Virus record (IMG/VR): IMGVR_UViG_3300030379_000158
DNA length: 64,000 nt
Direction: 5' to 3' (one strand)
From: a virus
Lineage: Duplodnaviria > Heunggongvirae > Uroviricota > Caudoviricetes
Under the pieces are notes generated by a model, which saw only the letters and a program-made list of their open reading frames with translations, was not told the origin of the DNA and searched no databases. The translations under genes were made by a program, and so were the position numbers. Below are positions 2,246 to 63,454 of the stretch, in pieces (within the stretch, counting starts at the first letter, position 1; each line of letters starts with the position of its first letter).

Positions 2246-2490
2246 AAAAGCGATACTACACAGTAAAGCATGGGACGCTACGAGCATTACAAGAGTTTGC
2301 TGATAAGCATAACGTTGAGGTGCGCAGGGAGGGGGGAAGTAAAGCTCTGCGCATGTACCGTCCGGACGGGAAATGGCGTACGGTCGTCGATTTCAAAACT
2401 AACAGCGTTCCCCAGGGCGTCCGCGATCGGGCATTCGAAGAATGGGAGCAGATCATCATAGATAATGCATTGCTTCTCAATGCGGATTAA
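2242..2490 (+). CDS. Lxc-like small protein (82 aa), possible modulator of C1 repression
   Basis: Track ORF directly upstream of mod, same position and size as P1 lxc. Confidence 0.45.
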   Translation: MKKRYYTVKHGTLRALQEFADKHNVEVRREGGSKALRMYRPDGKWRTVVDFKTNSVPQGVRDRAFEEWEQIIIDNALLLNAD

Positions 2491-2634
2491 ACTTCCCCAA
2501 ATAATGGCTGTTTGCTCGCCGAGCATCGCTCAAAGAAACACGATTATTCAAACATATAGATAGTGATAGTGCCCTCGTATAAGTGTGACAACTTCTGGCT
2601 CTAGTGGGCTGGGGAGGCGGCGCTTTGTTGCTAA

Positions 2635-4590
2635 ATGATCTGGTTTAAAATGGATATGAAAAAAGAAACGATTTTTTCCGAAGTAGAAACGGCTAACAGC
2701 AAGCAACTGGCTGTGTTGAAAGCTAATTTCCCTCAGTGTTTTGATAAAAACGGAGCCTTCATTCAAGAAAAATTGCTTGAGATTATTAGGGCATCGGAAG
2801 TTGAACTCTCTAAAGAATCATACAGCTTGAACTGGCTGGGTAAATCTTATGCCCGTTTGTTGGCCAATCTACCACCGAAAACGTTGTTGGCAGAAGATAA
2901 AACTCATAACCAACAAGAAGAGAACAAGAACAGTCAACACCTGTTAATCAAAGGGGATAATCTCGAAGTATTGAAGCATATGGTTAATGCTTACGCTGAA
3001 AAGGTGAAGATGATTTACATTGACCCACCATACAATACAGGTAAGGATGGGTTCGTTTATAATGATGATCGCAAATTTACACCTGAGCAGCTTTCTGAAC
3101 TAGCAGGCATCGACCTCGATGAGGCTAAACGCATATTAGAATTTACCACCAAGGGGTCAAGCAGTCATAGTGCATGGCTGACATTCATTTACCCACGCCT
3201 TTATATTGCTCGTGAATTAATGAGAGAAGACGGGACTATTTTTATTTCTATTGACCATAATGAGTTCAGTCAATTAAAACTAGTTTGCGACGAGATCTTT
3301 GGTGAGCAAAACCATGTTGGGGATCTAGTATGGAAAAATGCAACTGATAACAACCCTTCAAATATCGCTGTAGAGCATGAATATATTATTGTTTACACAA
3401 AAAACAAAGAGCAGCTTATAAGTGAGTGGAAATCTAATATCTCCGATGTAAAAAACTTACTTGTCAACATAGGTGAAGAATTTGCATCAAAATACACTGG
3501 CAATGAACTTCAGGAAAAATATACCCAGTGGTTTCGTGAACACAGATCTGAATTATGGCCTCTTGACCGATACAAATATATAGACAAAGACGGCATCTAT
3601 ACTGGTAGTCAGAGCGTCCACAACCCCGGAAAAGAGGGTTACAGATATGATATTATACATCCAAAAACTAAGAAGCCATGCAAACAACCTCTTATGGGAT
3701 ATCGTTTTCCATTAGATACAATGGATAGGCTTCTGTCTGAAGAAAAGATCATCTTCGGTGATGATGAAAACAAAATTATAGAACTAAAAGTTTATGCTAA
3801 GGATTACAAACAGAAATTAAGCTCCGTTATCCATCTTGATGGGCGTGTTGCAACGAACGAACTTAAAGAGCTGTTCCCAGAAATGACTCAACCATTCACA
3901 AATGCTAAAACTATAAAATTAGTAGAAGATTTAATATCTTTTGCATGTGATGGAGAGGGTATTGTTTTGGATTTTTTTGCTGGGTCAGGAACTACAGCGC
4001 ATACAGTTTTTAATTTGAATAACAAAAATAAAACGTCGTATCAGTTTATTACAGTTCAACTAGATGAACCTACAAAAGATAAATCTGATGCCATGAAGCA
4101 TGGCTATAATACAATATTTGACTTAACAAAGGAGCGTTTAATTAGGGCGTCTAAAAAAAATAGGGATCAGGGGTTTAAGGTATATCAACTAATGCCAGAT
4201 TTTCGCGCTAAAGACGAATCAGAACTTACACTGTCTAATCATACATTCTTTGATGATGTTGTCTTGACGCCTGAACAATATGACACTCTATTAACTACAT
4301 GGTGCCTGTATGATGGCAGTTTGCTAACAACACCTATTGAAGATGTTGATCTTGGTGGCTACAAAGCACATTTGTGCGATGGTCGTCTGTATTTGATTGC
4401 ACCTAATTTTACTAGCGAAGCATTGAAAGCGTTACTTCAAAAGGTGGATTCAGACAAAGACTTTGCTCCAAACAAAGTCGTGTTTTATGGCAGCAACTTT
4501 GAAAGCGCAAAGCAAATGGAACTCAATGAAGCACTAAAAAGTTATGCTAATAAAAAATCTATTGAGTTAGATTTGGTGGTGAGGAACTAA
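2635..4590 (+). CDS. mod: Type III restriction-modification methyltransferase (Mod, EcoP1I-like); likely true start is the in-frame ATG at 2650 (646 aa)
   Basis: N6-adenine methyltransferase motif IV (IYIDPPYNTGKD) and motif I (FFAGSGTT) in track protein; immediately followed by res. Confidence 0.85.
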   Translation: MIWFKMDMKKETIFSEVETANSKQLAVLKANFPQCFDKNGAFIQEKLLEIIRASEVELSKESYSLNWLGKSYARLLANLPPKTLLAEDKTHNQQEENKNSQHLLIKGDNLEVLKHMVNAYAEKVKMIYIDPPYNTGKDGFVYNDDRKFTPEQLSELAGIDLDEAKRILEFTTKGSSSHSAWLTFIYPRLYIARELMREDGTIFISIDHNEFSQLKLVCDEIFGEQNHVGDLVWKNATDNNPSNIAVEHEYIIVYTKNKEQLISEWKSNISDVKNLLVNIGEEFASKYTGNELQEKYTQWFREHRSELWPLDRYKYIDKDGIYTGSQSVHNPGKEGYRYDIIHPKTKKPCKQPLMGYRFPLDTMDRLLSEEKIIFGDDENKIIELKVYAKDYKQKLSSVIHLDGRVATNELKELFPEMTQPFTNAKTIKLVEDLISFACDGEGIVLDFFAGSGTTAHTVFNLNNKNKTSYQFITVQLDEPTKDKSDAMKHGYNTIFDLTKERLIRASKKNRDQGFKVYQLMPDFRAKDESELTLSNHTFFDDVVLTPEQYDTLLTTWCLYDGSLLTTPIEDVDLGGYKAHLCDGRLYLIAPNFTSEALKALLQKVDSDKDFAPNKVVFYGSNFESAKQMELNEALKSYANKKSIELDLVVRN

Positions 4591-4592
4591 TC

Positions 4593-7505
4593 ATGTCAAA
4601 AGGGTTCACTCTCGAAAAGAACTTGCCGCATCAGAAAGCAGGAGTCGATGCGGTGATGAATGTTTTTGTTTCCGCAACACCTCACCTGACGGATAATGTT
4701 GCTGTTCGCCTTTTAGCTAATCCTGAACTGAAGCTGTCTGAACAACAATACTACAACAATATAAAAAATGTTCAGGCGTTCAATGGTATTGCGCACTCAA
4801 AAGATAATCACAATGCTAAAAGCAACATCATTGATGTTTCTATGGAGACAGGTACAGGCAAGACGTACACCTATATCAAAACTATTTTTGACCTGAATAA
4901 ATCATTTGGTATTAACAAGTTTATCATCATTGTTCCGACTCTATCTATCAAGGCCGGAACCGTTAACTTTTTAAAAAGTGATGCTTTAAAAGAACACTTC
5001 CGGGATGATTACAAGCGTGAGCTGAGAACTTACGTTGTTGAAAGTCAGAAAAACGCTGGCAAAAATACAAAATCGTATATGCCTCAGGCTATACATGATT
5101 TTGTTGAAGCAAGTAACTTCAATAAAAAATATATACACGTTCTTGTTATTAACTCAGGAATGATCAACTCTAAGTCTTTAACGGATACTTACGATACTGG
5201 CTTGCTTGATAATCAGTTTAATACTCCAGTTGACGCGCTCAGAGCTGTAAAACCATTTATCATCATTGACGAACCACATAGATTTCCTACTGGTAAAAAA
5301 ACATGGGAAAACATAGAGAAATTTAACGCACAATATATTATCCGCTATGGCGCAACCTTTAGCGAAGGCTATAAGAACCTGGTTTATCGTCTTACAGCCG
5401 TGGACGCATTTAACGATGATCTCGTTAAAGGTATTGATGCATATATTGAGGATATAGTCGGCGATGGTAACGCAAACCTCAAATTCGTCAAATCTGACGG
5501 AAAGGAAGCTACATTTGAACTGAATGAAAACAACAACAAAAAATCGTTTAAGTTAGCTAAAGGTGAATCACTGTCTAAGACGCATAGTGCGATCCATGAT
5601 TTAACTCTTGATGCTTTAAACAAGAGCACAGCAGTGTTGAGTAATGGTATTGAGTTGAAGATTGGTAGCTCAATAAATCCCTATTCTTACGATCAGACAC
5701 TCGCTGATAACATGATGCGTAAGGCTGTCAAAGAACACTTTAAGTTAGAAAAAGAACTTCTGACACAAAGGCCACGCATAAAGCCTCTTACTCTTTTCTT
5801 TATTGACGATATTGAAGGCTATCGTGACGGTAATGATATTTCCGGAAGCCTGAAGACCAAATTCGAAGAATACGTTCTGGCAGAAGCTAATGAACTGTTA
5901 AAAACAGAGCAAGATGCGTTTTATAAAAACTATCTTGAAAAAACAGTCACAAATATATCTTCCGTTCATGGTGGTTATTTCTCAAAAGATAACAGTGATA
6001 AGGATGATAAAATCGAGCAGGAAATCAACGAAATCCTTCATGACAAAGAGCTTTTGCTGTCTTTAGATAATCCCCGTCGGTTTATTTTCTCAAAATGGAC
6101 GTTGCGTGAGGGGTGGGATAATCCTAATGTTTTTCAGATCTGTAAGCTCCGTTCGAGCGGTAGTACCACATCTAAGCTTCAAGAGGTAGGGCGCGGTTTG
6201 CGTCTTCCTGTGAATGAATACATGTGTCGAGTGAAAGACCGCAATTTTACCCTTAAATATTATGTTGATTTTACAGAAAAGGATTTTGTTGACTCACTTG
6301 TTAAAGAGGTCAACGAGAGTTCTTTCAAAGAAAGGGTTCCAAGTAAGTTTACTCAAGAGCTTAAGGAACAAATCATGGCTCAGTATCCTGAGCTTTCATC
6401 CAGAGCACTAATGAATGAACTTTTCAATGATGAAATCATTGATGACAATGATAATTTCAAAGATTCAGATGCCTATAGCCGCTTAAAATCCAAATATCCA
6501 GCAGCATTCCCTATAGGAGTGAAACCTGGTAAAATCAAAAAAGCTACTGATGGAAAAAGACGCACTAAAATGCGTGTTGGTAAGTTCAGTGAGCTGAAAG
6601 AACTATGGGATTTGATCAATCAAAAAGCGGTGATTGAGTACAAAATAAACAGTGAAAGTGAATTTTTATCCATTTTCAAGTCATTCATGCTCGAAGAAAC
6701 AGAACGATTTACCAAATCAGGCGTTCATACTCGCATTGATAAAATTTACATCCACAATGATATGGCAATGTCGAAAAGCATTGTCAGTGATGACGATGAC
6801 TTTGCTAAGCTGAACACAATGAGCTATCGAGAGTTTCTCGATAACTTATCACAGACTATTTTTGTTAAACACGGTACTTTACATAAAGTTTTTTGTGATA
6901 TAAAAGACACTATTAATATCACTGAATACCTTAATATTCAAACAATCAGAAAAATTAAATCTGGTTTTAGTAAGTATTTGTTGAACAATTCGTTTAATAA
7001 ATTCAGCCTCGGATATAATTTGATTTCGGGTTCAATTCATCCTACAAAGTTCACAAATGCTGATGGTAATCCTCTAGGCGAGGTATTATCAAGTGATCTT
7101 GGTGTATTGCAGGATAATGCAAAAGCACCATTAGATACTTATCTTTTTGAAGAAGTTTTTTATGATTCAGAGCTTGAAAGGCGTAATATAACAGATAGAG
7201 AGATCCAGTCTGTTGTTGTTTTTTCAAAGATACCGAAGAATTCTATTAAGATCCCGGTAGCTGGTGGATACACTTACTCACCCGATTTTGCTTATGTTGT
7301 AAAAACAGCGGAAGGTGATTATCTTAATTTTATCATTGAAACAAAAAACGTAGATAGTAAGGATAGTTTACGGCTTGAAGAAAAACGGAAAATTGAACAT
7401 GCCCAAGCGCTTTTCAATCAAATAAGTCAGTCTGTTAAAGTTGAATTCAGAACGCAGTTTGCTAATGATGATATTTATCAGTTAATCAAGAGCGCATTAC
7501 CATAA
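4593..7505 (+). CDS. res: Type III restriction enzyme Res subunit (970 aa), helicase plus endonuclease
   Basis: Walker A-like TGTGKT and DEPH box in N-terminal half; starts 3 bp after mod stop; size matches EcoP1I Res. Confidence 0.85.
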   Translation: MSKGFTLEKNLPHQKAGVDAVMNVFVSATPHLTDNVAVRLLANPELKLSEQQYYNNIKNVQAFNGIAHSKDNHNAKSNIIDVSMETGTGKTYTYIKTIFDLNKSFGINKFIIIVPTLSIKAGTVNFLKSDALKEHFRDDYKRELRTYVVESQKNAGKNTKSYMPQAIHDFVEASNFNKKYIHVLVINSGMINSKSLTDTYDTGLLDNQFNTPVDALRAVKPFIIIDEPHRFPTGKKTWENIEKFNAQYIIRYGATFSEGYKNLVYRLTAVDAFNDDLVKGIDAYIEDIVGDGNANLKFVKSDGKEATFELNENNNKKSFKLAKGESLSKTHSAIHDLTLDALNKSTAVLSNGIELKIGSSINPYSYDQTLADNMMRKAVKEHFKLEKELLTQRPRIKPLTLFFIDDIEGYRDGNDISGSLKTKFEEYVLAEANELLKTEQDAFYKNYLEKTVTNISSVHGGYFSKDNSDKDDKIEQEINEILHDKELLLSLDNPRRFIFSKWTLREGWDNPNVFQICKLRSSGSTTSKLQEVGRGLRLPVNEYMCRVKDRNFTLKYYVDFTEKDFVDSLVKEVNESSFKERVPSKFTQELKEQIMAQYPELSSRALMNELFNDEIIDDNDNFKDSDAYSRLKSKYPAAFPIGVKPGKIKKATDGKRRTKMRVGKFSELKELWDLINQKAVIEYKINSESEFLSIFKSFMLEETERFTKSGVHTRIDKIYIHNDMAMSKSIVSDDDDFAKLNTMSYREFLDNLSQTIFVKHGTLHKVFCDIKDTINITEYLNIQTIRKIKSGFSKYLLNNSFNKFSLGYNLISGSIHPTKFTNADGNPLGEVLSSDLGVLQDNAKAPLDTYLFEEVFYDSELERRNITDREIQSVVVFSKIPKNSIKIPVAGGYTYSPDFAYVVKTAEGDYLNFIIETKNVDSKDSLRLEEKRKIEHAQALFNQISQSVKVEFRTQFANDDIYQLIKSALP

Positions 7506-7515
7506 TGCTAGTTTA

Positions 7516-7540
7516 AAAGGAGGTGAAAACCTCCTTTTTT
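7516..7540. terminator. Rho-independent terminator hairpin between convergent res and mat-like genes
   Basis: AGGAGGT-GAAA-ACCTCCT stem-loop followed by T6 on plus strand, A-run on the other side (bidirectional). Confidence 0.6.
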
Positions 7541-7579
7541 GACATCCTACACGACCTGAAAGAAGTGGCGTTTAGGCCG

Positions 7580-8410: not shown

Positions 8411-8971
8411 TTAGTGCATGATGTTTGCCATCTCATAGGCGTCAGCCAGTAACTCCATCTCTGACTTGTTCAGCAGGGTGAATTCTTTCTTGCCTCCAAC
8501 CACACCATCGGCATGAACAGGGACCAGCCAGGGGTATTTTGCTCTTACTTCAGCCGGTGCTGCATGCTGGTGGTGCCATCTACAAAGTGGCAATTGCTTT
8601 TTATGACAACCCGGCGCGGTACGACCGGCGATATGGTGCAGAGACACCTCATTAGATATTACTCCATGCATATAGCAGGCAATGCAGGGGAGAGTGCCAA
8701 GAGCATTGGCGATGCGCCGTTCCTCCGCCGTTGGTGTTCTCCCCTTCAAGCCACGAGATTTTATTTTTACCGCGCTTTTCCGCGTTTTGCTGGCTGGTGG
8801 GCGCTCTTTCTGTTTAGCGATACGGCGGTCGATAGTATCCCGCATTTTCTGATATTGAGATTCTCGCCAGACCGGATCAGCCAACTTCTCCCGTTGCCGA
8901 GCGATCGCTCGTTCTCTGGCTGCCTTCTGCCACTTGCGGCACTGTTCAATTTTTTGTTCGATTGTTTTCAT
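8411..8971 (-). CDS. ref: Ref-like HNH endonuclease (recombination enhancement function), 186 aa
   Basis: HNH-type motif (HHIAGRTAPGCHKKQLPLCRWHHQ) in track protein; 186 aa and position next to cre as in P1; C1 operator-like site just upstream (about 8401-8420). Confidence 0.65.
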   Translation of the reverse strand: MKTIEQKIEQCRKWQKAARERAIARQREKLADPVWRESQYQKMRDTIDRRIAKQKERPPASKTRKSAVKIKSRGLKGRTPTAEERRIANALGTLPCIACYMHGVISNEVSLHHIAGRTAPGCHKKQLPLCRWHHQHAAPAEVRAKYPWLVPVHADGVVGGKKEFTLLNKSEMELLADAYEMANIMH

Positions 8972-9218
8972 ATGGTCAAAAAAAAGGCGGCCTAATGGCC
9001 GCCTATGATGTCAAGGAGTGAAGTAATGGCAACGTCTTCGTAGTTGGCAAAAACTGCGACTCAATTATAGCAACCAATTAGAGCAATTAAAGTTGTTTAT
9101 TTATCGCGAATCACATTTTTTCACTTCAGTACCTGTGTGCTATACTCCTTCTTGATTGATTGGATGCGGAATACAAACCCGTTCTTTTGTGCAGCCTGGC
9201 TCCTTGCCAGGCTTTTTT

Positions 9219-9580: not shown

Positions 9581-10612
9581 CTAATCGCCATCTTCCAGCA
9601 GGCGCACCATTGCCCCTGTTTCACTATCCAGGTTACGGATATAGTTCATGACAATATTTACGTTGGTCCAGCCACCAGCTTGCATGATCTCCGGTATTGA
9701 AACTCCGGCACGGGCCATATCTCGCGCGGCTCCGACACGGGCACTGTGTCCAGACCAGGCCAGGTACCTCTGGCCAGAGTCATCCTTAGCCCCGTAAATC
9801 AATCGGTGAGTTGCTTCAAAAATCCCTTCCAGGGCGCGAGTTGATAGCTGGCTGGTGGGTGATGGCGAGGCAACACCATTTTTTCTGACCCGGCAAAACA
9901 AGTAGTTATTCGGATCATCAGCCACACCAGAGACAGAAATCCATCGCTCGACCAGTTTAGTTACCCCCAGGCTAAGTGCCTTCTCTACACCTGCGGTGCT
10001 AACCAGCGTTTTCGTTCTGCCAATATGGATTAACATTCTCCCACCGTCAGTACGTGAGATATCTTTAACCCTGATCCTGGCAATTTCGGCTATACGTAAC
10101 AGGGTGTTATAAGCAATCCCCAGAAATGCCAGATTACGTATATCCTGGCAGCGATCGCTATTTTCCATGAGTGAACGAACCTGGTCGAAATCAGTGCGTT
10201 CGAACGCTAGTGCCTGTTTTGCACGTTCACCGGCATCAACGTTTTCTTTTCGGATCCGCCGCATAACCAGTGAAACAGCATTGCTGTCACTTAGTCGCGG
10301 CAGCCCGGACCGACGATGAAGCATGTTTAGCTGGCCCAAATGTTGCTGGATAGTTTTTACTGCCAGACCGCGCGCCTGAAGATATAGAAGATAATCGCGA
10401 ACATCTTCAGGTTCTGCGGGAAACCATTTCCGGTTATTCAACTTGCACCATGCCGCCCATGACCGGCAAACGGACAGAAGCATTTTCCAGGTATGCTCAG
10501 AAAACGCCTGGCGATCCCTGAACATGTCCATCAGGTTCTTGCGAACCTCATCACTCGTTGCATCGACCGGCAATGCAGGCAAATTTTGGTGTACGGTCAG
10601 TAAATTGGACAT
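9581..10612 (-). CDS. cre: Cre tyrosine recombinase (343 aa)
   Basis: Track protein begins MSNLLTVHQNLPALPVDATSDEVRKNLMDMFRDRQAFSEHTWKMLLSVCRSWAAWCKLNNRKWFPAEPEDVRDYLLYLQARGLAVKTIQQHLGQLNMLHRRSGLPR and ends ...MVRLLEDGD, which I recognise as Cre; loxP lies about 420 bp upstream. Confidence 0.95.
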   Translation of the reverse strand: MSNLLTVHQNLPALPVDATSDEVRKNLMDMFRDRQAFSEHTWKMLLSVCRSWAAWCKLNNRKWFPAEPEDVRDYLLYLQARGLAVKTIQQHLGQLNMLHRRSGLPRLSDSNAVSLVMRRIRKENVDAGERAKQALAFERTDFDQVRSLMENSDRCQDIRNLAFLGIAYNTLLRIAEIARIRVKDISRTDGGRMLIHIGRTKTLVSTAGVEKALSLGVTKLVERWISVSGVADDPNNYLFCRVRKNGVASPSPTSQLSTRALEGIFEATHRLIYGAKDDSGQRYLAWSGHSARVGAARDMARAGVSIPEIMQAGGWTNVNIVMNYIRNLDSETGAMVRLLEDGD

Positions 10613-11207: not shown

Positions 11208-11445
11208 TAGTTTTGCCGCCGTTACGTAATACGACTTTGGATTCACTATTTAATGTGTCTTCAGCGTTGTAGAGCGGCTCAGAAGGAAATGAGCAAACAG
11301 GGAAACCTTATACAACGGCATTACAGCTATGCATTGCTCATCTTACACACAGCGCAATGTTGTTAGATTACCCCAGCATGGATCATGGGTGAAACAGTAG
11401 GTCAGAGCTTCAGGCTCTGTGTTGTCAATACAGTGAGGCATAATT

Positions 11446-11655
11446 ATGGCTTTCATTCAACCAACCATCGACGACGTTAGACATTGCTCTAACGCTTTAT
11501 CTGTAGACCCTGCCGAAACCGACGCTGCCCGCGCCATTGCTGAACACTACTCAAAGATATCCAATCAGGAGTACCGCATCACCCAAGACGACTTGGATGA
11601 CCTCACTGACACAATCGAATATCTCATGGCAACTAACCAGTTAGACTCACAATAA
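11446..11655 (+). CDS. coi: Coi (C1 inactivator), 69 aa
   Basis: 69-aa ORF immediately upstream of c1, downstream of operators; matches P1 immC layout. Confidence 0.7.
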   Translation: MAFIQPTIDDVRHCSNALSVDPAETDAARAIAEHYSKISNQEYRITQDDLDDLTDTIEYLMATNQLDSQ

Positions 11656-11765
11656 ATGCACTAATAAATCTATTATTTTTGTTTGATCCCTCTATAATAT
11701 AGGTCAGTAATGACCGGTTTTCTCAGCCGGGCGTTATTGACCATGTCAATTCTGGAGGAGGATCA

Positions 11766-12617
11766 ATGATAAATTATGTCTACGGCGAACAACTGTACCA
11801 GGAGTTCGTCAGCTTCAGGGATCTCTTTCTAAAAAAAGCTGTTGCACGCGCCCAACACGTTGATACAGCCAGCGACGGTCGTCCTGTACGCCCGGTTGTC
11901 GTTCTACCGTTCAAAGAAACTGACAGCATTCAGGCTGAAATTGATAAATGGACTTTAATGGCGCGGGAACTGGAACAGTACCCAGACCTCAATATCCCAA
12001 AGACTATTTTATATCCAGTGCCTAACATCCTTCGCGGTGTGCGTAAGGTTACAACTTATCAGACAGAAGCTGTGAACAGCGTCAACATGACCGCTGGCCG
12101 CATTATTCATCTGATTGATAAGGACATTCGCATCCAAAAAAGCGCGGGGATCAATGAGCACAGTGCGAAATACATAGAGAACCTGGAAGCAACAAAAGAG
12201 CTAATGAAGCAGTACCCGGAGGATGAAAAATTCCGTATGCGCGTACACGGCTTTAGCGAAACAATGCTGCGCGTCCACTACATTTCCAGTAGCCCTAACT
12301 ACAATGATGGTAAATCAGTTAGTTACCATGTGCCACTGTGTGGCGTGTTTATCTGCGATGAAACTCTCCGTGATGGAATTATCATCAACGGTGAATTCGA
12401 AAAAGCAAAATTTAGCCTTTATGACTCCATAGAACCGATCATCTGCGACCGCTGGCCGCAAGCAAAAATATATCGCCTGGCAGATATTGAAAATGTAAAA
12501 AAACAAATTGCCATCACTCGCGAAGAGAAAAAGGTTAAGTCAGCCGCATCAGTTACGCGCAGCCGTAAAACCAAGAAGGGGCAGCCAGTAAACGACAACC
12601 CCGAAAGCGCGCAATAA
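11766..12617 (+). CDS. c1: C1 repressor of lysis, 283 aa
   Basis: 283-aa ORF at the immC position next to loxP/cre; many copies of its operator motif are scattered through the window. Confidence 0.85.
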   Translation: MINYVYGEQLYQEFVSFRDLFLKKAVARAQHVDTASDGRPVRPVVVLPFKETDSIQAEIDKWTLMARELEQYPDLNIPKTILYPVPNILRGVRKVTTYQTEAVNSVNMTAGRIIHLIDKDIRIQKSAGINEHSAKYIENLEATKELMKQYPEDEKFRMRVHGFSETMLRVHYISSSPNYNDGKSVSYHVPLCGVFICDETLRDGIIINGEFEKAKFSLYDSIEPIICDRWPQAKIYRLADIENVKKQIAITREEKKVKSAASVTRSRKTKKGQPVNDNPESAQ

Positions 12618-12622
12618 ATTAT

Positions 12623-12648
12623 GCCCGGCATCAACCGGGCATTCTTCC
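12623..12648. terminator. Hairpin between convergent c1 and ant-like gene
   Basis: GCCCGG-CATCAA-CCGGGC stem-loop with weak T tract. Confidence 0.4.
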
Positions 12649-12649
12649 A

Positions 12650-13768
12650 TTATTCAGCCGCCACCGGTTTTAACAAGCCAGCATCGAGCAGTTTACGCGT
12701 CAACCACTGCTGGCCTTTACCCGTTAATTGAGGCGTCAACCGTATCTGGTAGCCATCTTCATCATCCAGCACCACTTCTTTCACCGTGAAATACCCCGCG
12801 TTGATGTACTGCTGGAACGGCACATTTTTACGTCCACCGGACGCTATCAGGATGCCGTTCTCCCGTAACCAGACAAACAGCGCGTTTTGTTTAAGTCCAA
12901 CAACCTTTGCAAAATTCCCAATCAGGATCCCTTTAGCTACTGATACCCGGTCGGCAAAATCGACTTTAGGAGCGGCGGCCACCAGCTGCTGATTTAGCTG
13001 GTGGGCTTTCTGTTCCAGAAGTTGCTTTTGTTCAGCCAGTTCGGCAGCCAGGCGTAGGGCTTCAGGAAGCGTCTGGGGGATTGCGATCGGTTGCTGTTCT
13101 TTTTGTCGGAAGTAGCTGTCTTCCAGTTTTTCAAAGAATGCCCATGCCTGATCGGTTTCGAGCATTTTAGCGTGGCGGGCTGCGCCGCGTTCTGTCCAGA
13201 GGGTGAGTGAGCGAACATTGCGAGCAATTTTTACAGAGTAGTTTAAAGCTACTCTGTGCTTCAACTCGCGCAATGATTCTCCTTCAACTTTGAAAAAGTG
13301 CTTCCCTTCAACAAAGCGTACTTTGTTCTCATGATGATTTTGGCGAATACGGATTGTTTCTGTCCCATACCCTCTAGCAAGAGTCTCGGTTGTCACTACA
13401 CGCACTCCCTGCCATTCCAGAACGGGAATTTCATCAGACTGATTCTGAACAACCACCAGCTCCGATTCTTGAACTGAAGGTGCATGAATTTTTTCTGATT
13501 TAACGTTAGTTGCTTTCATTCTGTGTGCCTCCTTGCGTGCTTCGGCTGCGGCGGTTGCGTAATTCAGATGACCCTGTTCGAGCAGGTATTCGCGGATATC
13601 AGACAACAGGATACGGTGAACCGCGTTCTTGTCCTTTCTCCGGTAAAGTTGTTTGGTGATCATGAAGTAATTGGCAATAACGCCTGGTATATCCCTGGTA
13701 CTGATACAGGCAGTGTGCTGTTCAATTGCCTCGATCATCTCTTCACGGGTGACTAATGACGTTCTCAT
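12650..13768 (-). CDS. Antirepressor-like protein, Ant1-like N-terminus, central ORF6N/Bro-N-like segment, KilA-C-type C-terminus (372 aa)
   Basis: N-terminal about 90 aa and C-terminal about 120 aa (PQTLPEALRLAAELAEQK...KVDFADRVSVA.GILIGNFAKVVGLKQNALF...GKGQQWLTRKLLDAGLLKPVA) closely parallel the Ant1 ORF at 61862..62905; middle segment differs. Confidence 0.7.
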   Translation of the reverse strand: MRTSLVTREEMIEAIEQHTACISTRDIPGVIANYFMITKQLYRRKDKNAVHRILLSDIREYLLEQGHLNYATAAAEARKEAHRMKATNVKSEKIHAPSVQESELVVVQNQSDEIPVLEWQGVRVVTTETLARGYGTETIRIRQNHHENKVRFVEGKHFFKVEGESLRELKHRVALNYSVKIARNVRSLTLWTERGAARHAKMLETDQAWAFFEKLEDSYFRQKEQQPIAIPQTLPEALRLAAELAEQKQLLEQKAHQLNQQLVAAAPKVDFADRVSVAKGILIGNFAKVVGLKQNALFVWLRENGILIASGGRKNVPFQQYINAGYFTVKEVVLDDEDGYQIRLTPQLTGKGQQWLTRKLLDAGLLKPVAAE

Positions 13769-13986
13769 AGTCCCTCCTGAGCAGAAGCGTTAACAGGGAG
13801 GCACCAGTAACTGAGAGAATTGCGTGAATCAGTGGAAAAACGGGCAGAGAAAATACATGGGGCGTCAGGAAGCTGAGAGCGGGCCTCATCTTCTGTCGGT
13901 GCAATAACGAAGTGATAGTGACGTTTTTGGCAGGAGTAAAAGCGCCAGATAAATTCAGGATGAGTTGGGGTAGGGATAGTAGCCAT
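13765..13986 (-). CDS. Icd/Ash-like small protein (73 aa), start at internal ATG with AGGAGG RBS
   Basis: C-terminal 73 aa of track ORF 13765..14214 parallel the Icd ORF at 62902..63123 (EFIWRFYSC..HYHFVIA.TEDEARSQLPD.PCIF.ARFST.SRNSLSYW); ATG at 13984-13986 with AGGAGG upstream. Confidence 0.6.
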   Translation of the reverse strand: MATIPTPTHPEFIWRFYSCQKRHYHFVIAPTEDEARSQLPDAPCIFSARFSTDSRNSLSYWCLPVNASAQEGL

Positions 13987-14307
13987 ATTGGCAGCCTCCT
14001 TAGACGTTGGTATGTAACCACCGCAGAAGAGACCAATCTTGCTGGCGGTGGACTGTACGGAGTTGGCCTTACTGGCGTCCAAGGTAACCAGCCTACCCGA
14101 AGGTAGCCCCATACAGCCCACCATTGTAGAGGTGTGCGTGTACGCCGATACAAAAAAAAGACGCGAGCGGCGTCTGTATCGCCTTAGACTTAAGCGGGAG
14201 GCCAATCCCGGCACCCGTTTTAATGAGGTGCCTGATAAGCATAAACCGAAAATGCCTCAAGGCGCAAGAGGTCAGGCTCAATGTAACATCGGTAGTTAAA
14301 AAACACA

Positions 14308-14324
14308 ATTTATTAGAGCAAATA
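14308..14324 (-). promoter_or_regulatory. C1 operator-like site just downstream of pacB and upstream of the icd/ant-like module
   Basis: AATTTATTAGAGCAAAT on plus strand. Confidence 0.6.
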
Positions 14325-14328
14325 TTCA

Positions 14329-15810
14329 TTAATTAAGCCATGCCAGAGCTTCATCAACCTGCGCTTCGTCTTCGACGCTAAGCACTTCATCCTGGGGAAC
14401 ATAATCAGCCAGCATAGCGAAACAATATGTATCCCAATGGTCTGGTGAGTGCAGGTTGAGTTTTTTCTTCATATCCTCCTTACTCATCACCTTCCATTGA
14501 CCTGCGGAGTTAATCCCTACAGGGATTTTCGACGCTTCCTCAATAGTTTCATTACCCTTATCCAGTCTCATACGACCAGATTTTACGGCCTCTGCGGCTT
14601 GAACGTTGGCATAAGCACGTTTATCAAAGTACAGGCTCTTATCTTCACGGCTATGCATCTTTTTACCCCAGCGTATACGCTGTACGGTAATACCATAATA
14701 CTCGTACATCAGATCCGCCGTTGCTTTACCCAGGCCATCGCCGTCTATCGCTATGGTGATATTGGGGAATCGCTCAGGATTACATTCTGCGAAAATTTTG
14801 GCGGCAAGCTGCGTTTCTGTAACGTCTGTGTATTCCAGCATTCGATAGTTGATTACACGGCGTTTATTTCGCTGGCCGGACACCATCATGATATTGATAA
14901 CGGACTTATCCCGTCCCGTACCACCAGCAACGTCCACACATGCAAGCCAGCCCCATCCTTTTGCAATCTTGACTTTCCGCCGCGTTGCACGTTCAACCTC
15001 ATCACGCCCAAGAAGGAAGCCATCCTGTGATTTAGGGAATAGGCCGCGTACCTTAATCATGTACATAGGGTTATCACGCCCGCCGTACTCCGCCAGCTTC
15101 ATTTTGATAAATGCTGGCGTTACCAACGGTGATTCCTCACTGTTAAGCGTGATCGCCGTATAAACGCCATCAGGGTTACCAGGACGCTTGGCCAGTTTAT
15201 GGTGTGTATCGTAGAAATAGCCGCTTGGGCGTGTAGGCTGTGACAGCAATAAGATGCGGTTATCCTGTCCGGTAAGAGCACCGGTGATGATACCGAAAGC
15301 TCTATCACTGACACCGGAGGCTTCATCGATAATATACAGAAGATGATCTGCGTGTTCACCGGCGAGAGCTTCTTCACTTCCCAGACGAAAGCCCTTCGGT
15401 ACTACAGTCCATACACCTTTACCAGTAACCTCATAGAAAGCGGTTTCTGTCAGAACAAAATAATCAGCAAGCCATGGAAAACGGCTGGTGGCAGTAGCCC
15501 AGTTTATCTTGATGTACTTGAATATACCGGTCATTACCTGCTGAATTTTGTTCGCAACGATAATGGCGCGGGCACCGGGATACATGATTATGAACAACAT
15601 GATCATGATAGAAGTCATGTCTGATTTCCCGGTACCGTGACCAGACGAAACAGATGTCTTGCTACCCTGTTCCTGCACAGACTCAATAATCAGATCCTGC
15701 TGCCAGGTAGGTGTTTTGCCGAACAAAACATCAGCGGCAGCAATCCAGTCATAACGATATAGCGCCACCAGCTCGCGCCAACGTGGATCCGTTACGCAAC
15801 TTCTGGCCAT
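14329..15810 (-). CDS. pacB: PacB, terminase large subunit (493 aa)
   Basis: Walker A-like SSGHGTGKS; size and position after pacA match P1 PacB. Confidence 0.8.
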
Positions 15811-17003
15811 TAATCATCATCCCCGTATAGCTTGCGGGTAACTTCTTCGTCTTCCTCCTCGTCTTCGTCCAGGTCTTGTTCCAGCCATGGGTCGTTTGAT
15901 ACACCTTCAGTATCAACATCTCCATAACCGCCTGTATCAACGATATCGGCGATTTCTTCCCTACGCTGCTCAATCCACAATGCGGCATCGGCGCGGCGGT
16001 TGGCGGCCCGTTCTCGCGCAACTTTGTCCAGATCTTCAAGAGAAGGGCCACCGACGGCTGTTTGCCTTTCCTCATCATCGGTATTGGTCTTAGGAGCACG
16101 CAGATCGGCTTTGATTTGCTCCAGCATCAGGGGCGGAACTTTCCCACCATGCGCCTCGATGAATTCAGCTGCTTCCAGCACTGACCAGTTATTTTCACGC
16201 TTTCGTTCGTATGCCAGCTTAACAATGCCAGCTTGCCCCATAGACAAAGCGTGCTTTTCCGCCTCCCGGCTTTCTTTTCGATAGTTATTCCGGATGCTGT
16301 AAATGGTGTTGATCAGACTGCTTATCTGCGCGGAACAGCTGTTTAGCATGCTCGCGATACGGTATTCAGGCGGAGTACCTCCATCATCGTCTTTTTGCTG
16401 ATCGCGCATTTCCTGCACCAGGCGAATACACGTATCCCTGGCGTTCTCCAGCATAAGGAGATGAGAAAGAGACTTTTCAAGAAGAGTGGTTTCCAGAACA
16501 TCGGCCCCGGACCGACGCAACATAGCGCGCGCGGCCTTCCGCGCTTCAACGCTATCTATCAGGTAATCGCCAGCTTCGAATTCAAAGCGTTCACCATCAT
16601 CATCCAGGGTGTCGCGTTCCAGACGATCACGTAAGGTCCGGTGGGCGCGGGTGATCACGTCATGATCATCTGAACGATCATTTATGCGCTTATTTTGGCG
16701 CTTCGCATTCTCGACTGCGGCACTGACAACGGCATTAACTCTCTGTTTTTCCGCTATTTCAGCCGCAATATGATCACCTGCATGTTGATCATTAGAGTGA
16801 TCAATGATCATGCCTTTTAGTGGCTTCCTGACTGGCTTATTTGGCTTGCGGCTGTCCGCAGTCCTGGTGTCTTCTTTGAAGGCACGGAGATAACGACGTG
16901 CGGTATTAGGGTTAAGATTAAACTCGGCGGCATACTGTGCGATGGTGTAACCACCATCTCGCGCCAGGCGAGCAAAATTCTTCTTGTGATCGTCCCAGGT
17001 CAC
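15810..17003 (-). CDS. pacA: PacA, terminase small subunit (397 aa), contains pac site
   Basis: 397-aa ORF overlapping pacB start by 1 nt; internal clusters of TGATCA/G hexamers. Confidence 0.8.
16620..16812. other. pac packaging site: two clusters of Dam-methylatable TGATCA/G hexamers
   Basis: Four hexamers around 16624-16681 and four around 16771-16810, inside pacA, as described for P1 pac. Confidence 0.6.
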
Positions 17004-59532: not shown

Positions 59533-59688
59533 TTACCTTTCAGATTCGTAGGCTGTGAAGACAGTGACCTCCGTCTGGCCGGTTCGGATTCGTACCTCGC
59601 AGAGGTCTTTCCTCGTTACCAGTGCCGTCACAATGACGGTTAAACAGATGACGATCAGAGCGATTAATATCGCTTTTTGCTGCTTCAT
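59533..59688 (-). CDS. hok: Hok/Gef-family type I toxin (51 aa, MKQQKAILIALIVICLTVIVTALVTRKDLCEVRIRTGQTEVTVFTAYESER)
   Basis: Not in ORF track (under 60 aa); strong resemblance to Hok including transmembrane segment and C-terminal YES motif; overlapped by a mok-like frame. Confidence 0.75.
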   Translation of the reverse strand: MKQQKAILIALIVICLTVIVTALVTRKDLCEVRIRTGQTEVTVFTAYESER

Positions 59689-59746
59689 AGCCTGCTTCTC
59701 CTTGACCTTTTGGTCGGTAAGAGGCTAATCTACGTATGCTAAGCAT
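59540..59746 (-). CDS. Mok-like overlapping reading frame of the hok locus (68 aa)
   Basis: Track ORF 59540..59746 overlaps hok in another frame and starts upstream, as mok does in hok/sok loci. Confidence 0.5.
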   Translation of the reverse strand: MLSIRRLASYRPKGQGEAGYEAAKSDINRSDRHLFNRHCDGTGNEERPLRGTNPNRPDGGHCLHSLRI

Positions 59747-60005
59747 AGATATTGCCTCAGATTAATGTTAAGCGTCTTGCAGGACGCGTAATGTTATCTG
59801 GGGCTTTCTTCTATCTGCTTTTCGGGTAATGCCTGAAGCAGATAGCCTCAAGCACCCGCAATGATTGTATCAATGTCTGGCTTTTTTTCTATAGAAATCA
59901 CCGGGAAGGGTGAATATCCACATCAGAAGAAATGTTGCAGCAAACATGATCCCTAATGGCCAGACCGCGCCAAAGAAAATCCATACTGAAAACGCCAGGT
60001 GACTC

Positions 60006-61861: not shown

Positions 61862-62905
61862 TTAACCTATTGCTACTGGTTTTAACAAACCAGCATCAAG
61901 TAGCTTGCGAGTTAACCACTGCTGGCCTTTACCCGTTAATTGGGGCGTCAGCCGTATCTGGTAGCCATTTTCATCATCCAGCACCACTTCTTTCACCGTG
62001 AAATACCCGGCGTTAATGTACTGCTGGCGCGGTACGTTTTTGCGCGCACCAAAAGCCATGAGAATGCCGTTCTGGCGCAACCATGAGAAAAGGGCGTTTT
62101 GCTTAAGTCCAACGACCTTTGCAAAGTTCCCGATCAGGATTCCATTAGCCACTGATACCCGGTCGGCAAAATCGACTTTAGGGGCTGCGGCCACCAGCTG
62201 TTGTTCCAGCTGCAATTTCTGTTCTGCCAACTCGGCAGCCAGGCGTAGGGCTTCTGGTAATGTTTGGGGGATCGATGGGGTAGGGGAGTTTGCCTGCTGC
62301 AATTCTTCCAGTTTGTCGATCAGCGAACGGCGGACCGCTTTCGATTCGCGCGCGGCGACTCGCAGGGCTTGTTTGTAGGTCATGGTTATGACAACCATAG
62401 GCGTACCGCCACCTGGCGGCACGGTTGCACTTTTTGTGTAACCGTCCTCACCTTCTAATTCGTCGAGTATTTTTTCGATGAATTTGTTGTTCCGAACCTC
62501 TGGTTCCCCACATAACTTACGCGCTTCATTGACCATCTTTAACAGTGTCAGGCTGTCGATTGTGTCTCCGGTGGTGGGGATGACATTCACGGCTGGTGCT
62601 GGCGTTGCTGAAGCAACAGGTGCTGGTTTTTTAACATTCAAATTATTACTGGTCATTCTATGTGCCTCCTTTCTCATTTCTGCTGCCACCGTTGCGTAAC
62701 GTAGACGTCCTTGTTCAATCAAATAATCCCTGATCTCGGCTATCAGTAGCCTGTTGATCACAGCCTTATCTGTTCGGGTATAAAAACGCCTGGTTATCAT
62801 GAAATAGTTGGCAATTGCGCCGGGGATCTCCCGTGTCGGTATACAGGCAGTATGCAGGGCGATCGCTTCGGCTATGTCATTACGGGTGACGAGAGGTTTT
62901 TTCAT
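61862..62905 (-). CDS. ant1: Ant1 antirepressor (347 aa; Ant2 would arise from an in-frame internal start)
   Basis: Follows icd with 4-bp overlap; KilA-C-type C-terminus. Confidence 0.75.
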   Translation of the reverse strand: MKKPLVTRNDIAEAIALHTACIPTREIPGAIANYFMITRRFYTRTDKAVINRLLIAEIRDYLIEQGRLRYATVAAEMRKEAHRMTSNNLNVKKPAPVASATPAPAVNVIPTTGDTIDSLTLLKMVNEARKLCGEPEVRNNKFIEKILDELEGEDGYTKSATVPPGGGTPMVVITMTYKQALRVAARESKAVRRSLIDKLEELQQANSPTPSIPQTLPEALRLAAELAEQKLQLEQQLVAAAPKVDFADRVSVANGILIGNFAKVVGLKQNALFSWLRQNGILMAFGARKNVPRQQYINAGYFTVKEVVLDDENGYQIRLTPQLTGKGQQWLTRKLLDAGLLKPVAIG

Positions 62906-63123
62906 AAACCCCCCTGAACGTCGGCAGAGAAGGGGAGGCTCCAGTAACTAAGTGAATTGCGCGAGTTAGTTGAAAAACGGGCAGTAAAAATGCAGGGGCC
63001 ATCAGGCAATTGAGAGCGTGCTTCGTCTTCAGTTGCTGCGATAACGAAGTGATAGTGGTGTTTTTTACAGGAATAGAAACGCCAGATGAATTCTGGGCGT
63101 GCGCAAGGATTGGCATTAACCAT
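62902..63123 (-). CDS. icd: Icd (interference with cell division), 73 aa
   Basis: 73-aa Ash-family-like ORF preceding ant1; c4-type leader upstream. Confidence 0.7.
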   Translation of the reverse strand: MVNANPCARPEFIWRFYSCKKHHYHFVIAATEDEARSQLPDGPCIFTARFSTNSRNSLSYWSLPFSADVQGGL

Positions 63124-63264
63124 AGTTACGGCCTCACAATCAGGTTTAACAACCTGCTACCCGCTGCTAAACAGGTGGCAGGACGTGACGGGGTTAGCAG
63201 ACTGGCGATTGTGAAACCAGCAGGCCGAAGCCTCCCCATCACGCCCCACCATAATTTGGGCGTA

Positions 63265-63345
63265 ACGCGGTTTTACGGACACAAAAATACCGCAATATCG
63301 GATATCTGCGGCTGTCCGCACAATCATTCAGGCTGCTAAACCCGG
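63265..63345 (-). ncRNA. Approximate location of c4-type antisense RNA within the immI leader
   Basis: Repeated GCTGCTAAAC and complementary GTTAGCAG elements between the operator at 63438 and icd start; boundaries not determined. Confidence 0.3.
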
Positions 63346-63437
63346 TCGCAGAATTTGCTACGACGGCGGAACTATAAGCCTGAACGATTAAAAGGTCAAT
63401 ATGATGCGAAAAGATAGCATTCGTGACTTAAAAATAC

Positions 63438-63454
63438 AAATTTATTAGAGCATT
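63438..63454 (-). promoter_or_regulatory. C1 operator-like site controlling the immI (c4-icd-ant) promoter
   Basis: AAATTTATTAGAGCATTATC. Confidence 0.6.

What the first reader, a model, noticed from the sequence alone, without database searches (positions are those of the whole stretch)
12650..14330. Second icd/ant-like module next to c1, paralogous to the canonical immI locus in the same window
The window holds the canonical immI set (icd 62902..63123, ant1 61862..62905, kilA) and, separately, a 73-aa Icd/Ash-like ORF plus a 372-aa Ant-like ORF between pacB and c1. The two Icd-like proteins and the N- and C-terminal thirds of the two Ant-like proteins are clearly related, but the second Ant has a different central segment (ORF6N/Bro-N-like). 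A C1 operator-like site lies about 320 nt upstream of the second icd-like start, the same spacing as in immI, yet the leader lacks the GCTGCTAAAC repeats of the c4 system. This may be a second antirepressor circuit with different regulatory specificity.
Basis: partly seen in the sequence, partly recalled or inferred. Interest (0 to 1): 0.6.

Follow-up and report, generated by a model that had tools for sequence, protein, structure and literature searches.

The report
Second antisense-gated antirepressor cassette in P1-like prophage
Between the packaging gene pacB and the repressor gene c1, this P1/P7-like plasmid prophage carries a complete second copy of the phage's "immunity I" switch (small antisense RNA, icd-like gene, antirepressor gene) whose RNA recognition sequences differ from those of the resident copy; about half of natural P1-like plasmids in E. 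coli have such a cassette, so it is real and probably functional but belongs to a known kind.

Summary
A 1.7 kb insertion (about 12632-14328, minus strand) lies between c1 and pacB, which are about 24 bp apart in P1, P7 and SJ46. It carries a C1 operator-like site, a 73-aa Icd-like ORF and a 372-aa Ant-like ORF. The Ant-like protein has P1-type N- and C-terminal parts and an ORF6N centre.

That is true only of the P7-type repeat sequence. Rfam finds a C4 antisense RNA (14041-14128, 75.9 bits) preceded by an isrK-type leader (14154-14231, 60.8 bits).

The two recognition elements of this C4-like RNA (a', b') match their own targets. These are a1/b1 in the isrK-like leader and a2/b2 over the icd-like ribosome-binding site. 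Across 14 alleles collected from related loci, RNA and targets change together, and the cognate pairing is the best in 14 of 14. The two systems in this window are predicted not to cross-react.

Both ORFs are intact and under purifying selection. The cassette occurs in 279 of 5426 complete E. coli genomes, against 541 that carry pacB.

It is a second, orthogonal immI-type operon. The insertion itself is already mentioned in the literature (RCS47, pTZ20_1P), so it is a new member of a known kind.

The parts
14306..14322 (-). C1 operator-like site TTTGCTCTAATAAATTG. It lies inside the insertion, directly after the pacB stop codon.
   Evidence: Matches the consensus at 15 of 17 positions. The window has 14 such sites against 0.32 expected. 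It aligns with Op51/Oc4 of P1 and P7.
14280..14308 (-). Candidate C1-controlled promoter (-35 TTGTGT 14303-14308, 17-nt spacer, -10 TACATT 14280-14285). Its -35 overlaps the operator. It is the positional equivalent of P1 P2c4 (P51a).
   Evidence: Column-for-column alignment with the annotated P1 promoter. Inference only: the consensus scan did not call it.
14238..14267 (-). Candidate operator-independent promoter (-35 TTGCGC 14262-14267, 18-nt spacer, -10 TATGCT 14238-14243). It is the positional equivalent of P1 P1c4 (P51b) and of the TTGACT/TATATT promoter before the isrK-like RNA of Stx phage P13374.
   Evidence: Alignment A3. The Rfam isrK match starts 7 nt after the -10. Inference.
14154..14231 (-). 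isrK-type leader RNA. It has a 5' hairpin (14211-14231), target a1 UUGGCCU (14199-14205) in the loop of hairpin CGGG...CCCG (14195-14210), target b1 GUCUAAGG (14182-14189), and an intrinsic terminator hairpin plus U8 (14152-14175).
   Evidence: Rfam RF01394 scores 60.8 bits against a threshold of 50, and RF03163 c4-a1b1 gives a weak match at 20.5 bits. Terminator from the scan. Motif coordinates.
14041..14128 (-). C4-family antisense RNA gene. The b' recognition loop is UUACCUUGGACG (14076-14087) and the a' single-stranded segment is AGGCCAA (14063-14069).
   Evidence: Rfam RF01695 scores 75.9 bits against a threshold of 45 and my own model scores 93.7 bits. The MFE fold equals the family structure at -41.6 kcal/mol, z=-3.5. 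Across 15 distinct sequences, 12 of 27 pairs show compensatory changes.
13995..14036 (-). Downstream targets. a2 is UUGGUCU (14030-14036). b2 is CGUCUAAGG (13998-14006), which overlaps the icd-like Shine-Dalgarno AAGGAGG (13995-14001). The ATG is at 13984-13986.
   Evidence: Direct complementarity and coordinates. Cognate duplex energy -22.2 kcal/mol.
13765..13986 (-). icd-like gene, 73 aa. Its stop codon overlaps the ant-like start codon (ATGA).
   Evidence: 81% identity to the canonical Icd. NCBIfam phage_ICD_like E=2.6e-13. Intact in 73 of 76 related loci, dN/dS 0-0.3.
12650..13768 (-). ant-like gene, 372 aa. It has a P1-type N-terminal part, an internal Ant2-like start (SD AAGGAGG 13528-13534, ATG 13517-13519, codon 84), an ORF6N domain (aa 116-202, about 13163-13423) and a KilAC/ANT domain (aa 260-361, about 12686-12991).
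   Evidence: The P1 ant2 start is at codon 84. dN/dS is 0.16-0.41, and the ORF is 370-372 aa in 58 of 76 loci.
12621..12642 (-). G+C-rich hairpin between the ant-like stop and the convergent c1 stop. It is a probable bidirectional terminator and replaces the P1 spacer.
61862..63454 (-). Resident canonical immI, given for comparison: Op51 63438-63454, a1b1 63325-63377, c4 63171-63256 (P7-type specificity), icd 62902-63123, ant1 61862-62905.
   Evidence: Identical to P7 in c4 and all four targets.

Best explanation
The 1.7 kb segment is a complete second immI-type operon with its own antisense specificity.

Gene order. Reading the minus strand: C1 operator with two promoters, an isrK-type leader carrying decoy targets a1 and b1 and ending in an intrinsic terminator, a C4-family antisense RNA, targets a2 and b2 over the ribosome-binding site, icd-like, then a translationally coupled ant-like gene with nested Ant1- and Ant2-like starts.

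Proposed mechanism, inferred by homology with P1/P7 immI. In the lysogen C1 shuts off the operator-overlapping promoter. The weaker downstream promoter still supplies the leader and, by read-through of the terminator, the C4-like RNA. Loop b' and segment a' of that RNA pair with b2 and a2 on any read-through mRNA and occlude the icd-like Shine-Dalgarno. Translation of icd-like is blocked, and with it the coupled ant-like gene. When C1 is absent (fresh infection or induction), or when the C4-like RNA is missing or titrated by the a1/b1 leader RNA, Icd-like and Ant-like are made. Ant-like then antagonises a repressor, most likely C1, because it keeps P1-type Ant N- and C-terminal parts and sits under a C1 operator.

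Consequence. The a'/b' sequences are orthogonal to the resident P7-type c4. The phage therefore carries two independent locks. It should escape the immI immunity of P1 or P7 lysogens, which lack the second c4, while itself silencing incoming phages that carry either cassette.

Shown here: the anatomy, family membership of both RNAs, complementarity, covariation, orthogonality by predicted energy, intact selected ORFs, and prevalence.

Inferred: the promoters, RNA processing, repression in vivo, and the protein target.
For: RNA families. Rfam finds C4 (75.9 bits) and isrK (60.8 bits) in the leader. The same pair occurs in RCS47, pXJW9B263-2 and Stx phage P13374, and in 7 of 7 enterobacterial chromosomal loci.

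Complementary targets. b' CCUUGGAC matches b1 and b2 (GUCUAAGG). a' AGGCCAA matches a1 UUGGCCU and a2 UUGGUCU. b2 overlaps the SD.

Covariation. There are 14 (b', a') alleles in 81 c4 genes, and all four targets change in step. In the energy matrix the cognate pairing is best in 14 of 14 rows. The diagonal mean is -20.3 kcal/mol and the off-diagonal mean is -7.9. The two window systems score -22.2 and -19.7 on their own targets, against -8.0 and -3.1 across.

C4 structure. 91% of cells pair, 12 of 27 pairs carry double changes, and 0 of 500 shuffles reach the observed values. The MFE fold equals the family fold.

Operator and promoters. The operator and both P1-annotated promoters are positionally conserved.

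Coding features. The ATGA stop/start overlap and the Ant2-like SD+ATG at codon 84 match P1. ORFs are intact, with dN/dS 0.16-0.41 for ant and 0-0.3 for icd.

Prevalence. The cassette is in 279 complete E. coli genomes against 541 with pacB, and in 290 PLSDB plasmids.

Experimental precedent for the leader. In Gifsy-1, IsrK supplied in trans switches on translation of the downstream antirepressor AnrP, and IsrK is complementary to the downstream stable RNA STnc1160 (PMC4825925).
Against: No expression or binding data exist for this cassette.

Both promoters are weak matches. The consensus scan found no minus-strand promoter in the leader.

The a2 pairing is only 7 bp and includes a G-U.

The central domain (ORF6N) and the leader are lambdoid-like (73-79% to Stx phage P13374), so the protein target might not be C1.

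The MFE fold of the full leader pairs a1:a' and b1:b' in cis. The canonical immI leader does not do this, so the regulatory logic could differ from P1. The authors of the IsrK paper favour a structure-switch activation model.

Unconstrained RNAduplex sometimes preferred other upstream sites for b'.
Confidence: 0.78

Rival explanations
1. The RNA gate is the same, but the Ant-like protein does not act on C1. Its ORF6N centre and lambdoid-type leader would mark it as an antirepressor, or DNA-binding Roi/AntB-like factor, directed at repressors of co-resident lambdoid prophages, or at another host or phage function.
For: The ORF6N segment (13100-13400) and the leader (13954-14230) are 73-79% identical to Stx phage P13374, where they flank Rha/AntB-type genes. 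The central segment is unrelated to that of Ant1. Relatives are annotated 'Roi' in JL22 and 673R5.
Against: The N-terminal 84 aa and the C-terminal roughly 140 aa are P1-Ant-like, 70% and 81% identical at the DNA level to the resident ant1. The Ant2-like start is conserved. The cassette has a C1 operator and sits next to c1. Both Ant proteins match phrog_63 over their full length.
Confidence: 0.2
2. Regulation follows the published IsrK model rather than the P1 c4 model. The long transcript would be intrinsically inactive for translation because the leader pairs in cis with the C4-like region. The short IsrK-like RNA would act in trans as an activator. The C4-like element would be mainly a structural part of the mRNA, not a diffusible repressor.
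For: The isrK match is above threshold and includes the terminator. The MFE fold of the leader pairs a1:a' and b1:b' in cis. Gifsy-1 genetics support this model (PMC4825925).
Against: The a2 and b2 targets covary with a' and b' in all 14 alleles, and b2 always covers the SD. That is expected only if the C4-like RNA pairs with the downstream sites. The C4 fold is conserved with compensatory changes. The two models are not mutually exclusive, since IsrK could act as a decoy for C4.
Confidence: 0.2
3. The cassette is a decaying, non-functional remnant of a recombination between a P1-like phage and a lambdoid prophage.
For: Its composition is mosaic. Some relatives carry truncated ant genes or IS insertions: phi456, L028, L068 and a few short ORFs.
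Against: Both ORFs are intact here and in most of 76 loci, with dN/dS well below 1. The RNA and all four targets are kept complementary through at least five allele changes at this very site. The cassette is present in about half of the E. coli genomes that carry pacB.
Confidence: 0.03

Closest known systems
immI operon of phages P1 and P7 (Op51 - a1 b1 - c4 - a2 b2 - icd - ant1/ant2)
   Same: The order of all elements is the same. Shared features are a C1 operator about 320 nt before icd, two promoters at aligned positions, a C4-family RNA with an a' segment and a b' loop, b2 over the icd SD, the ATGA coupling of icd to ant, the nested Ant2 start at codon 84, and the KilAC C-terminus.
   Different: The location is between pacB and c1, not between sim and kilA. 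The a'/b' and target sequences are unrelated to those of P1 or P7, and no cross-pairing is predicted. The C4 scaffold and leader are of the isrK/lambdoid subtype. The Ant centre is an ORF6N domain.
Gifsy-1 isrK-orf45-anrP locus of Salmonella (IsrK sRNA, STnc1160, antirepressor AnrP; PMC4825925)
   Same: There is an isrK-family leader with an intrinsic terminator, followed by a stable structured RNA region and a translationally coupled small ORF plus antirepressor. Complementarity between the leader and the downstream RNA is shared.
   Different: Here the promoter region carries a P1 C1 operator. The small ORF is Icd-like and lies downstream of the C4-like RNA rather than overlapping it. No antQ gene is nearby. 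Whether the published orf45 and STnc1160 correspond to a C4-family RNA was not checked on the Salmonella sequence itself.
isrK-C4 modules of Stx-converting and other lambdoid prophages (for example P13374, TL-2011c, phi191)
   Same: These are the closest DNA relatives of the leader, the C4-like RNA and the ORF6N segment, at 73-79% identity. They have the same a1/b1-C4-a2/b2 layout, and the first codons (MATIP) are the same.
   Different: The downstream gene there is Rha-type, with separate AntB/ORF6N genes. They have no C1 operator and a different specificity (a' GUAGCAA, b' CCUUGAUUG).
The ant insertion between pacB and c1 reported for RCS47 and pTZ20_1P (PMC6906374), and the second c4-icd region of D6-like pYU39_89 (PMC6799933)
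   Same: The insertion site and gene content are the same. The idea of a second c4/icd region in this phage family is already recorded.
   Different: RCS47 carries another specificity allele (b' CCUUUGAC, a' GUCUCAA) and is 88% identical in DNA. Those papers give no RNA or target analysis.

Membership tests
P1/P7 immI (c4-icd-ant) operon | C1 operator overlapping a promoter upstream of the leader | tested here: met
   The operator matches at 15 of 17 positions at 14306-14322 and aligns with Op51. The -35 TTGTGT overlaps it. Promoter activity was not tested.
P1/P7 immI (c4-icd-ant) operon | C4-family antisense RNA encoded in the leader on the same strand as icd and ant | tested here: met
   RF01695 scores 75.9 bits against a threshold of 45. 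The fold and covariation support it.
P1/P7 immI (c4-icd-ant) operon | Targets a1/b1 upstream and a2/b2 downstream are complementary to a'/b', with b2 covering the icd ribosome-binding site | tested here: met
   The cognate pairing is best in 14 of 14 alleles.
P1/P7 immI (c4-icd-ant) operon | An icd gene translationally coupled to ant, and nested in-frame Ant1 and Ant2 starts | tested here: met
   There is an ATGA overlap at 13765-13768. An SD plus ATG sits at codon 84, as in P1 ant2. This rests on sequence only.
P1/P7 immI (c4-icd-ant) operon | Genomic position between sim and kilA-repL | tested here: not met
   It lies between pacB and c1. The canonical locus is present separately at 61862-63454.
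P1/P7 immI (c4-icd-ant) operon | The Ant protein binds and inactivates C1, and c4 represses ant in vivo through translational block and Rho-dependent termination | not testable with these tools
   Requires genetics and biochemistry.
IsrK sRNA family (Rfam RF01394) | Covariance-model score above the gathering threshold, with three hairpins and a terminal intrinsic terminator | tested here: met
   60.8 bits against a threshold of 50. Terminator hairpin plus U8.
IsrK sRNA family (Rfam RF01394) | The short RNA acts in trans to activate translation of the downstream antirepressor | not testable with these tools
   Known only for Gifsy-1 (PMC4825925).
KilAC/ANT antirepressors (Pfam PF03374) with ORF6N (PF10543) | Both domains score above the Pfam thresholds | tested here: met
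   ANT E=4e-31 and ORF6N E=2e-19. phrog_63 'anti-repressor Ant' matches over the full length, E=5e-131.

The most novel reading that the evidence does not exclude
P1-family phage-plasmids may use a combinatorial two-site antisense 'address' (an a' segment plus a b' loop) as a diversifying immunity code.

Many mutually orthogonal alleles exist; 14 were seen here. The a' and b' halves are reassorted by recombination. Genomes stack two or three cassettes at different hot spots: canonical immI, pacB-c1, the res-mod region and others. Each extra cassette would let a phage break the immunity of lysogens that lack its c4 while protecting its own lysogen.

A corollary is that the IsrK sRNA family would be the a1/b1 decoy, an anti-antisense RNA, for a C4-family RNA. 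That would unify the Gifsy-1 IsrK mechanism with P1 immI.
Probability: 0.45. Interest if true: 0.65.

Novelty: new member of a known kind. Interest (0 to 1): 0.45.

Why it matters
P1 and P7 are the textbook case of heteroimmunity set by a few bases of an antisense RNA. This finding indicates that the reference phages carry only one such RNA-gated cassette. Roughly half of natural P1-like plasmids in E. coli, important carriers of resistance genes, carry a second RNA-gated antirepressor cassette with an unrelated specificity, and the specificities are diverse and reassorted.

If the cassette is functional, it determines which P1-like elements can superinfect, induce or exclude one another. That bears on the spread of phage-plasmids.

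It also gives a ready set of natural, apparently orthogonal RNA/target pairs. And it offers a simple re-reading of the IsrK sRNA as the decoy partner of a C4-type RNA.

Genome annotation currently hides all this. PGAP labels the RNA gene as an 'ash family protein' pseudogene.

Tried and rejected
- My first covariance model (R1) had the outer stem mis-specified by one column. I discarded it and rebuilt it as R2.
- The sigma-70 consensus scan found no minus-strand promoter in the leader. The promoter assignments therefore rest only on alignment to the annotated P1 promoters.
- Unconstrained RNAduplex of b' against 140 nt of upstream sequence sometimes chose sites other than b1. For the specificity matrix I used fixed a2 and b2 segments.
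- The genome-contig scan with the isrK 5'-hairpin pattern returned 27 loci. Twenty were non-enterobacterial, and I judged them chance matches for an 18-mer in 596 Gb. I used only the 7 enterobacterial loci.
- A relaxed Pfam search of the Ant1 central segment gave nothing credible, so I could not show the two central segments to be distant homologues.
- I rejected the idea that the 149-aa extended ORF (GTG 14214) is the real gene. It overlaps the C4 and isrK RNAs, and the conserved SD+ATG at 13986 matches canonical icd.
- Literature searches found no functional study of this cassette.
Full report
**What the window is**

The window is a P1/P7-like plasmid prophage read in the opposite orientation to the P1 reference. 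The relevant genes are cre 9581-10612(-), coi 11446-11655(+), c1 11766-12617(+), pacB 14329-15810(-) and pacA 15810-17003(-).

In P1 the convergent c1 and pacB stop codons are about 24 bp apart. The same holds in SJ46. Aligning the junctions shows that here about 26 bp of that spacer is replaced by about 1.7 kb, roughly 12632-14328.

Megablast against phage records finds the full c1-pacB interval only in vB_EcoM-673R5 (99.7%), JL22 and RCS47. P1, P7, SJ46 and phiW39 match the flanks but not the insert.

**Checking the observation**

- The 372-aa ORF (12650-13768, minus) is 56% identical to the resident Ant1. The N- and C-terminal parts are conserved and the centre is gapped and dissimilar.
- The central segments alone are unrelated (E=0.35).
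- Pfam finds ORF6N (aa 116-202) plus KilAC/ANT in the new protein, only ANT in Ant1, and KilA-N plus ANT in KilA.
- The 73-aa ORF (13765-13986) is 81% identical to Icd and matches NCBIfam phage_ICD_like.
- A C1 operator-like 17-mer (15 of 17 positions) lies at 14306-14322, 320 nt before the icd-like ATG. Op51 lies 315 nt before canonical icd.
- The P7-type repeat GTTTAGCAGC is absent from the second leader.

An Rfam scan of the whole window finds two C4 antisense RNAs. One is the canonical copy at 63171-63256 (69.6 bits), with its c4-a1b1 element at 63325-63377. The other is a stronger match at 14041-14128 (75.9 bits) inside the 'empty' leader. That second C4 is preceded by an isrK match at 14154-14231 (60.8 bits).

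A permissive scan also gives a weak c4-a1b1 match (20.5 bits) over the same leader. The isrK-type element therefore appears to be the counterpart of the P1 a1/b1 element, with an added terminator.

On its own the C4-like RNA folds into the family structure (-41.6 kcal/mol, z=-3.5). A 12-nt hairpin loop forms b' and an 8-nt single-stranded segment forms a'.

Reading the sequence:
- b' CCUUGGAC is complementary to GUCUAAGG, which occurs upstream (b1, 14182-14189) and downstream (b2, 13998-14006). The downstream copy overlaps the icd-like Shine-Dalgarno AAGGAGG.
- a' AGGCCAA is complementary to UUGGCCU (a1, 14199-14205, in a hairpin loop) and to UUGGUCU (a2, 14030-14036, with one G-U).

This is exactly the P1 layout a1-b1-c4-a2-b2-icd, built from different sequences.

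**Is the pairing more than chance?**

I collected 79 related loci from IMG/VR with the Ant-like protein. To these I added RCS47, an IncY plasmid, Stx phage P13374, P1 and P7. I built a C4 covariance model and found 81 C4 genes. They fall into 15 distinct sequences and 14 (b', a') alleles on two scaffolds, a P1-type and an isrK/lambdoid-type.

In every allele all four targets change in step with a' and b'. Examples:
- RCS47: a' GUCUCAA with UUGAGAC twice, and b' CCUUUGAC with GUCAAAGG twice.
- P13374: a' GUAGCAA with UUGCUAC twice, and b' CCUUGAUUG with CAAUCAAGG and CAAUCGAGG.

In a matrix of summed duplex energies (a' against the a2 segment, plus the b' loop against the b2 segment), the cognate target is the best in 14 of 14 rows. 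The diagonal mean is -20.3 kcal/mol and the off-diagonal mean is -7.9.

For the two systems of this window:

| c4 RNA | own targets (kcal/mol) | other system's targets (kcal/mol) |
|---|---|---|
| module 2 | -22.2 | -8.0 |
| resident immI | -19.7 | -3.1 |

The C4 helices themselves show compensatory changes at 12 of 27 pairs, 91% of cells pair, and no shuffle or slid register comes close.

The resident immI c4 and its targets are identical to P7, not P1.

**Architecture upstream of the RNAs**

In the six-way leader alignment, the operator and both promoters annotated in P1 have positional counterparts:
- P2c4/P51a, which overlaps the operator, corresponds to TTGTGT-17-TACATT, whose -35 overlaps the operator.
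- P1c4/P51b, further downstream, corresponds to TTGCGC-18-TATGCT, which ends 7 nt before the isrK match.

The Stx phage has TTGACT-17-TATATT at the second position. These are weak matches, and the generic promoter scan did not call them, so they are inference.

An intrinsic terminator (hairpin plus U8, 14152-14175) ends the isrK-like element.

**Coding features**

The icd-like stop and the ant-like start overlap (ATGA). An SD plus ATG at codon 84 reproduces the P1 Ant2 start.

Among 76 related loci the icd-like ORF is intact in 73, and the ant-like ORF is 370-372 aa in 58. Pairwise dN/dS is 0.16-0.41 for ant and 0-0.3 for icd. The cassette is therefore maintained by selection.

**Origin**

The cassette is a mosaic:

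| Window segment | Content | Closest relative | DNA identity |
|---|---|---|---|
| 13954-14230 | leader and C4 | Stx phage P13374 | 79% |
| 13516-13959 | icd and Ant N-terminus | resident immI | 70% |
| 13100-13400 | ORF6N segment | Stx phage P13374 | 73% |
| 12660-13081 | KilAC end | resident ant1 | 81% |

The operator region resembles the kilA operator.

In 7 of 7 enterobacterial chromosomal loci retrieved with the isrK 5' hairpin, Rfam isrK is followed within tens of bases by Rfam C4. Each locus has its own covarying targets, and the downstream ORF is either Icd-like or Rha-type.

**Prevalence and prior knowledge**

At least 80% of the module is present in 290 PLSDB plasmids. It is also in 279 of 5426 complete E. 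coli genomes, while pacB is in 541. About half of P1-like plasmids therefore carry it.

At the pacB-c1 site alone there are at least five specificity alleles.

RCS47 annotates the gene as 'ant'. Venturini et al. [quoted passage not shown] RCS47' (PMC6906374). A second c4/icd region was noted in a D6-like plasmid (PMC6799933). None of these analyses the RNA. PGAP annotates the C4 gene as an 'ash family protein' pseudogene.

**Mechanism**

By homology with P1/P7 immI, which is established knowledge from Citron and Schuster 1990, Biere et al. 1992 and Heinrich et al. 1995 (cited from memory), the C4-like RNA should block the icd-like ribosome-binding site. That would also prevent expression of the coupled ant-like gene. 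C1 would add transcriptional control through the operator.

The isrK-type leader carries a1 and b1 and ends in a terminator, so it can be released as a short RNA. In Gifsy-1 such an RNA supplied in trans switches on the downstream antirepressor and is complementary to the downstream stable RNA (PMC4825925). This fits a decoy role against the C4-like RNA.

The MFE fold of the whole leader pairs a1:a' and b1:b' in cis. The canonical leader does not do so, so I treat this detail as uncertain.

Because the two C4 RNAs of this genome are predicted to be orthogonal, the cassette should give an additional, independent immunity specificity.

Whether Ant-like acts on C1 is inferred from three things: the P1-type termini, the C1 operator, and the location next to c1. 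The lambdoid ORF6N centre leaves another target possible.

**Verdict**

The object is a full second immI-type operon with an orthogonal C4-family RNA. It is a new, uncharacterised member of a known kind. It is common in nature and its presence is already recorded, so interest is moderate.

Noticed in passing
window 63112-63454 (-): The resident canonical immI has P7-type, not P1-type, c4 recognition sequences and targets. They are identical to P7 in the alignment.
   Followed up: yes
L017, L020, L024 (equivalent to window ~2488-7579); L037, L079 (~8419-8980); L084 (~36822-36880); L064: ORF6N-type icd-ant cassettes with a P1-scaffold c4 sit at other hot spots of P1-like genomes in IMG/VR: the res-mod region, near ref/c8, and a third site. 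One isrK-type cassette (L064) occupies the canonical position before kilA-repL. Single contigs can carry two or three cassettes.
   Followed up: partly
alignment A2 (c4 genes of 81 places): The a' and b' specificity halves look reassorted. Several b' alleles occur with each of two a' alleles on both scaffolds. For example, L081 combines the P1 b' with the P7 a'.
   Followed up: partly
L090, L093, L094, L103, L105, L115, L116: In all seven enterobacterial loci found with the isrK 5' hairpin, Rfam isrK is immediately followed by Rfam C4. This suggests that IsrK is generally the a1/b1 leader of a C4-type RNA.
   Followed up: partly
L089 805-918 (= window ~14041-14128): RefSeq/PGAP annotates the C4-like RNA gene as an incomplete 'ash family protein' CDS and gives no ncRNA feature.
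   Followed up: yes
L068 2141-2228 and 3707-3794; L028: L068 shows a tandem duplication of c4-icd with a truncated ant. In L028 about 1.3 kb is inserted between c4 and ant. Both are examples of rearranged cassettes.
   Followed up: no
window 47782-47898 (+), 59683-59857 (-), 39799-41456 (-): Other Rfam hits in the window: an ALIL pseudoknot (frameshift element of an IS3-family insertion sequence), the sok antitoxin RNA next to repL, and three tRNA genes.
   Followed up: no
window 11400-12617 and 14329-16000: The c1-coi and pacAB flanks are about 98% identical to SJ46 and phiW39 but only about 88% identical to P1 and P7. The backbone therefore belongs to the SJ46-like lineage.
   Followed up: no
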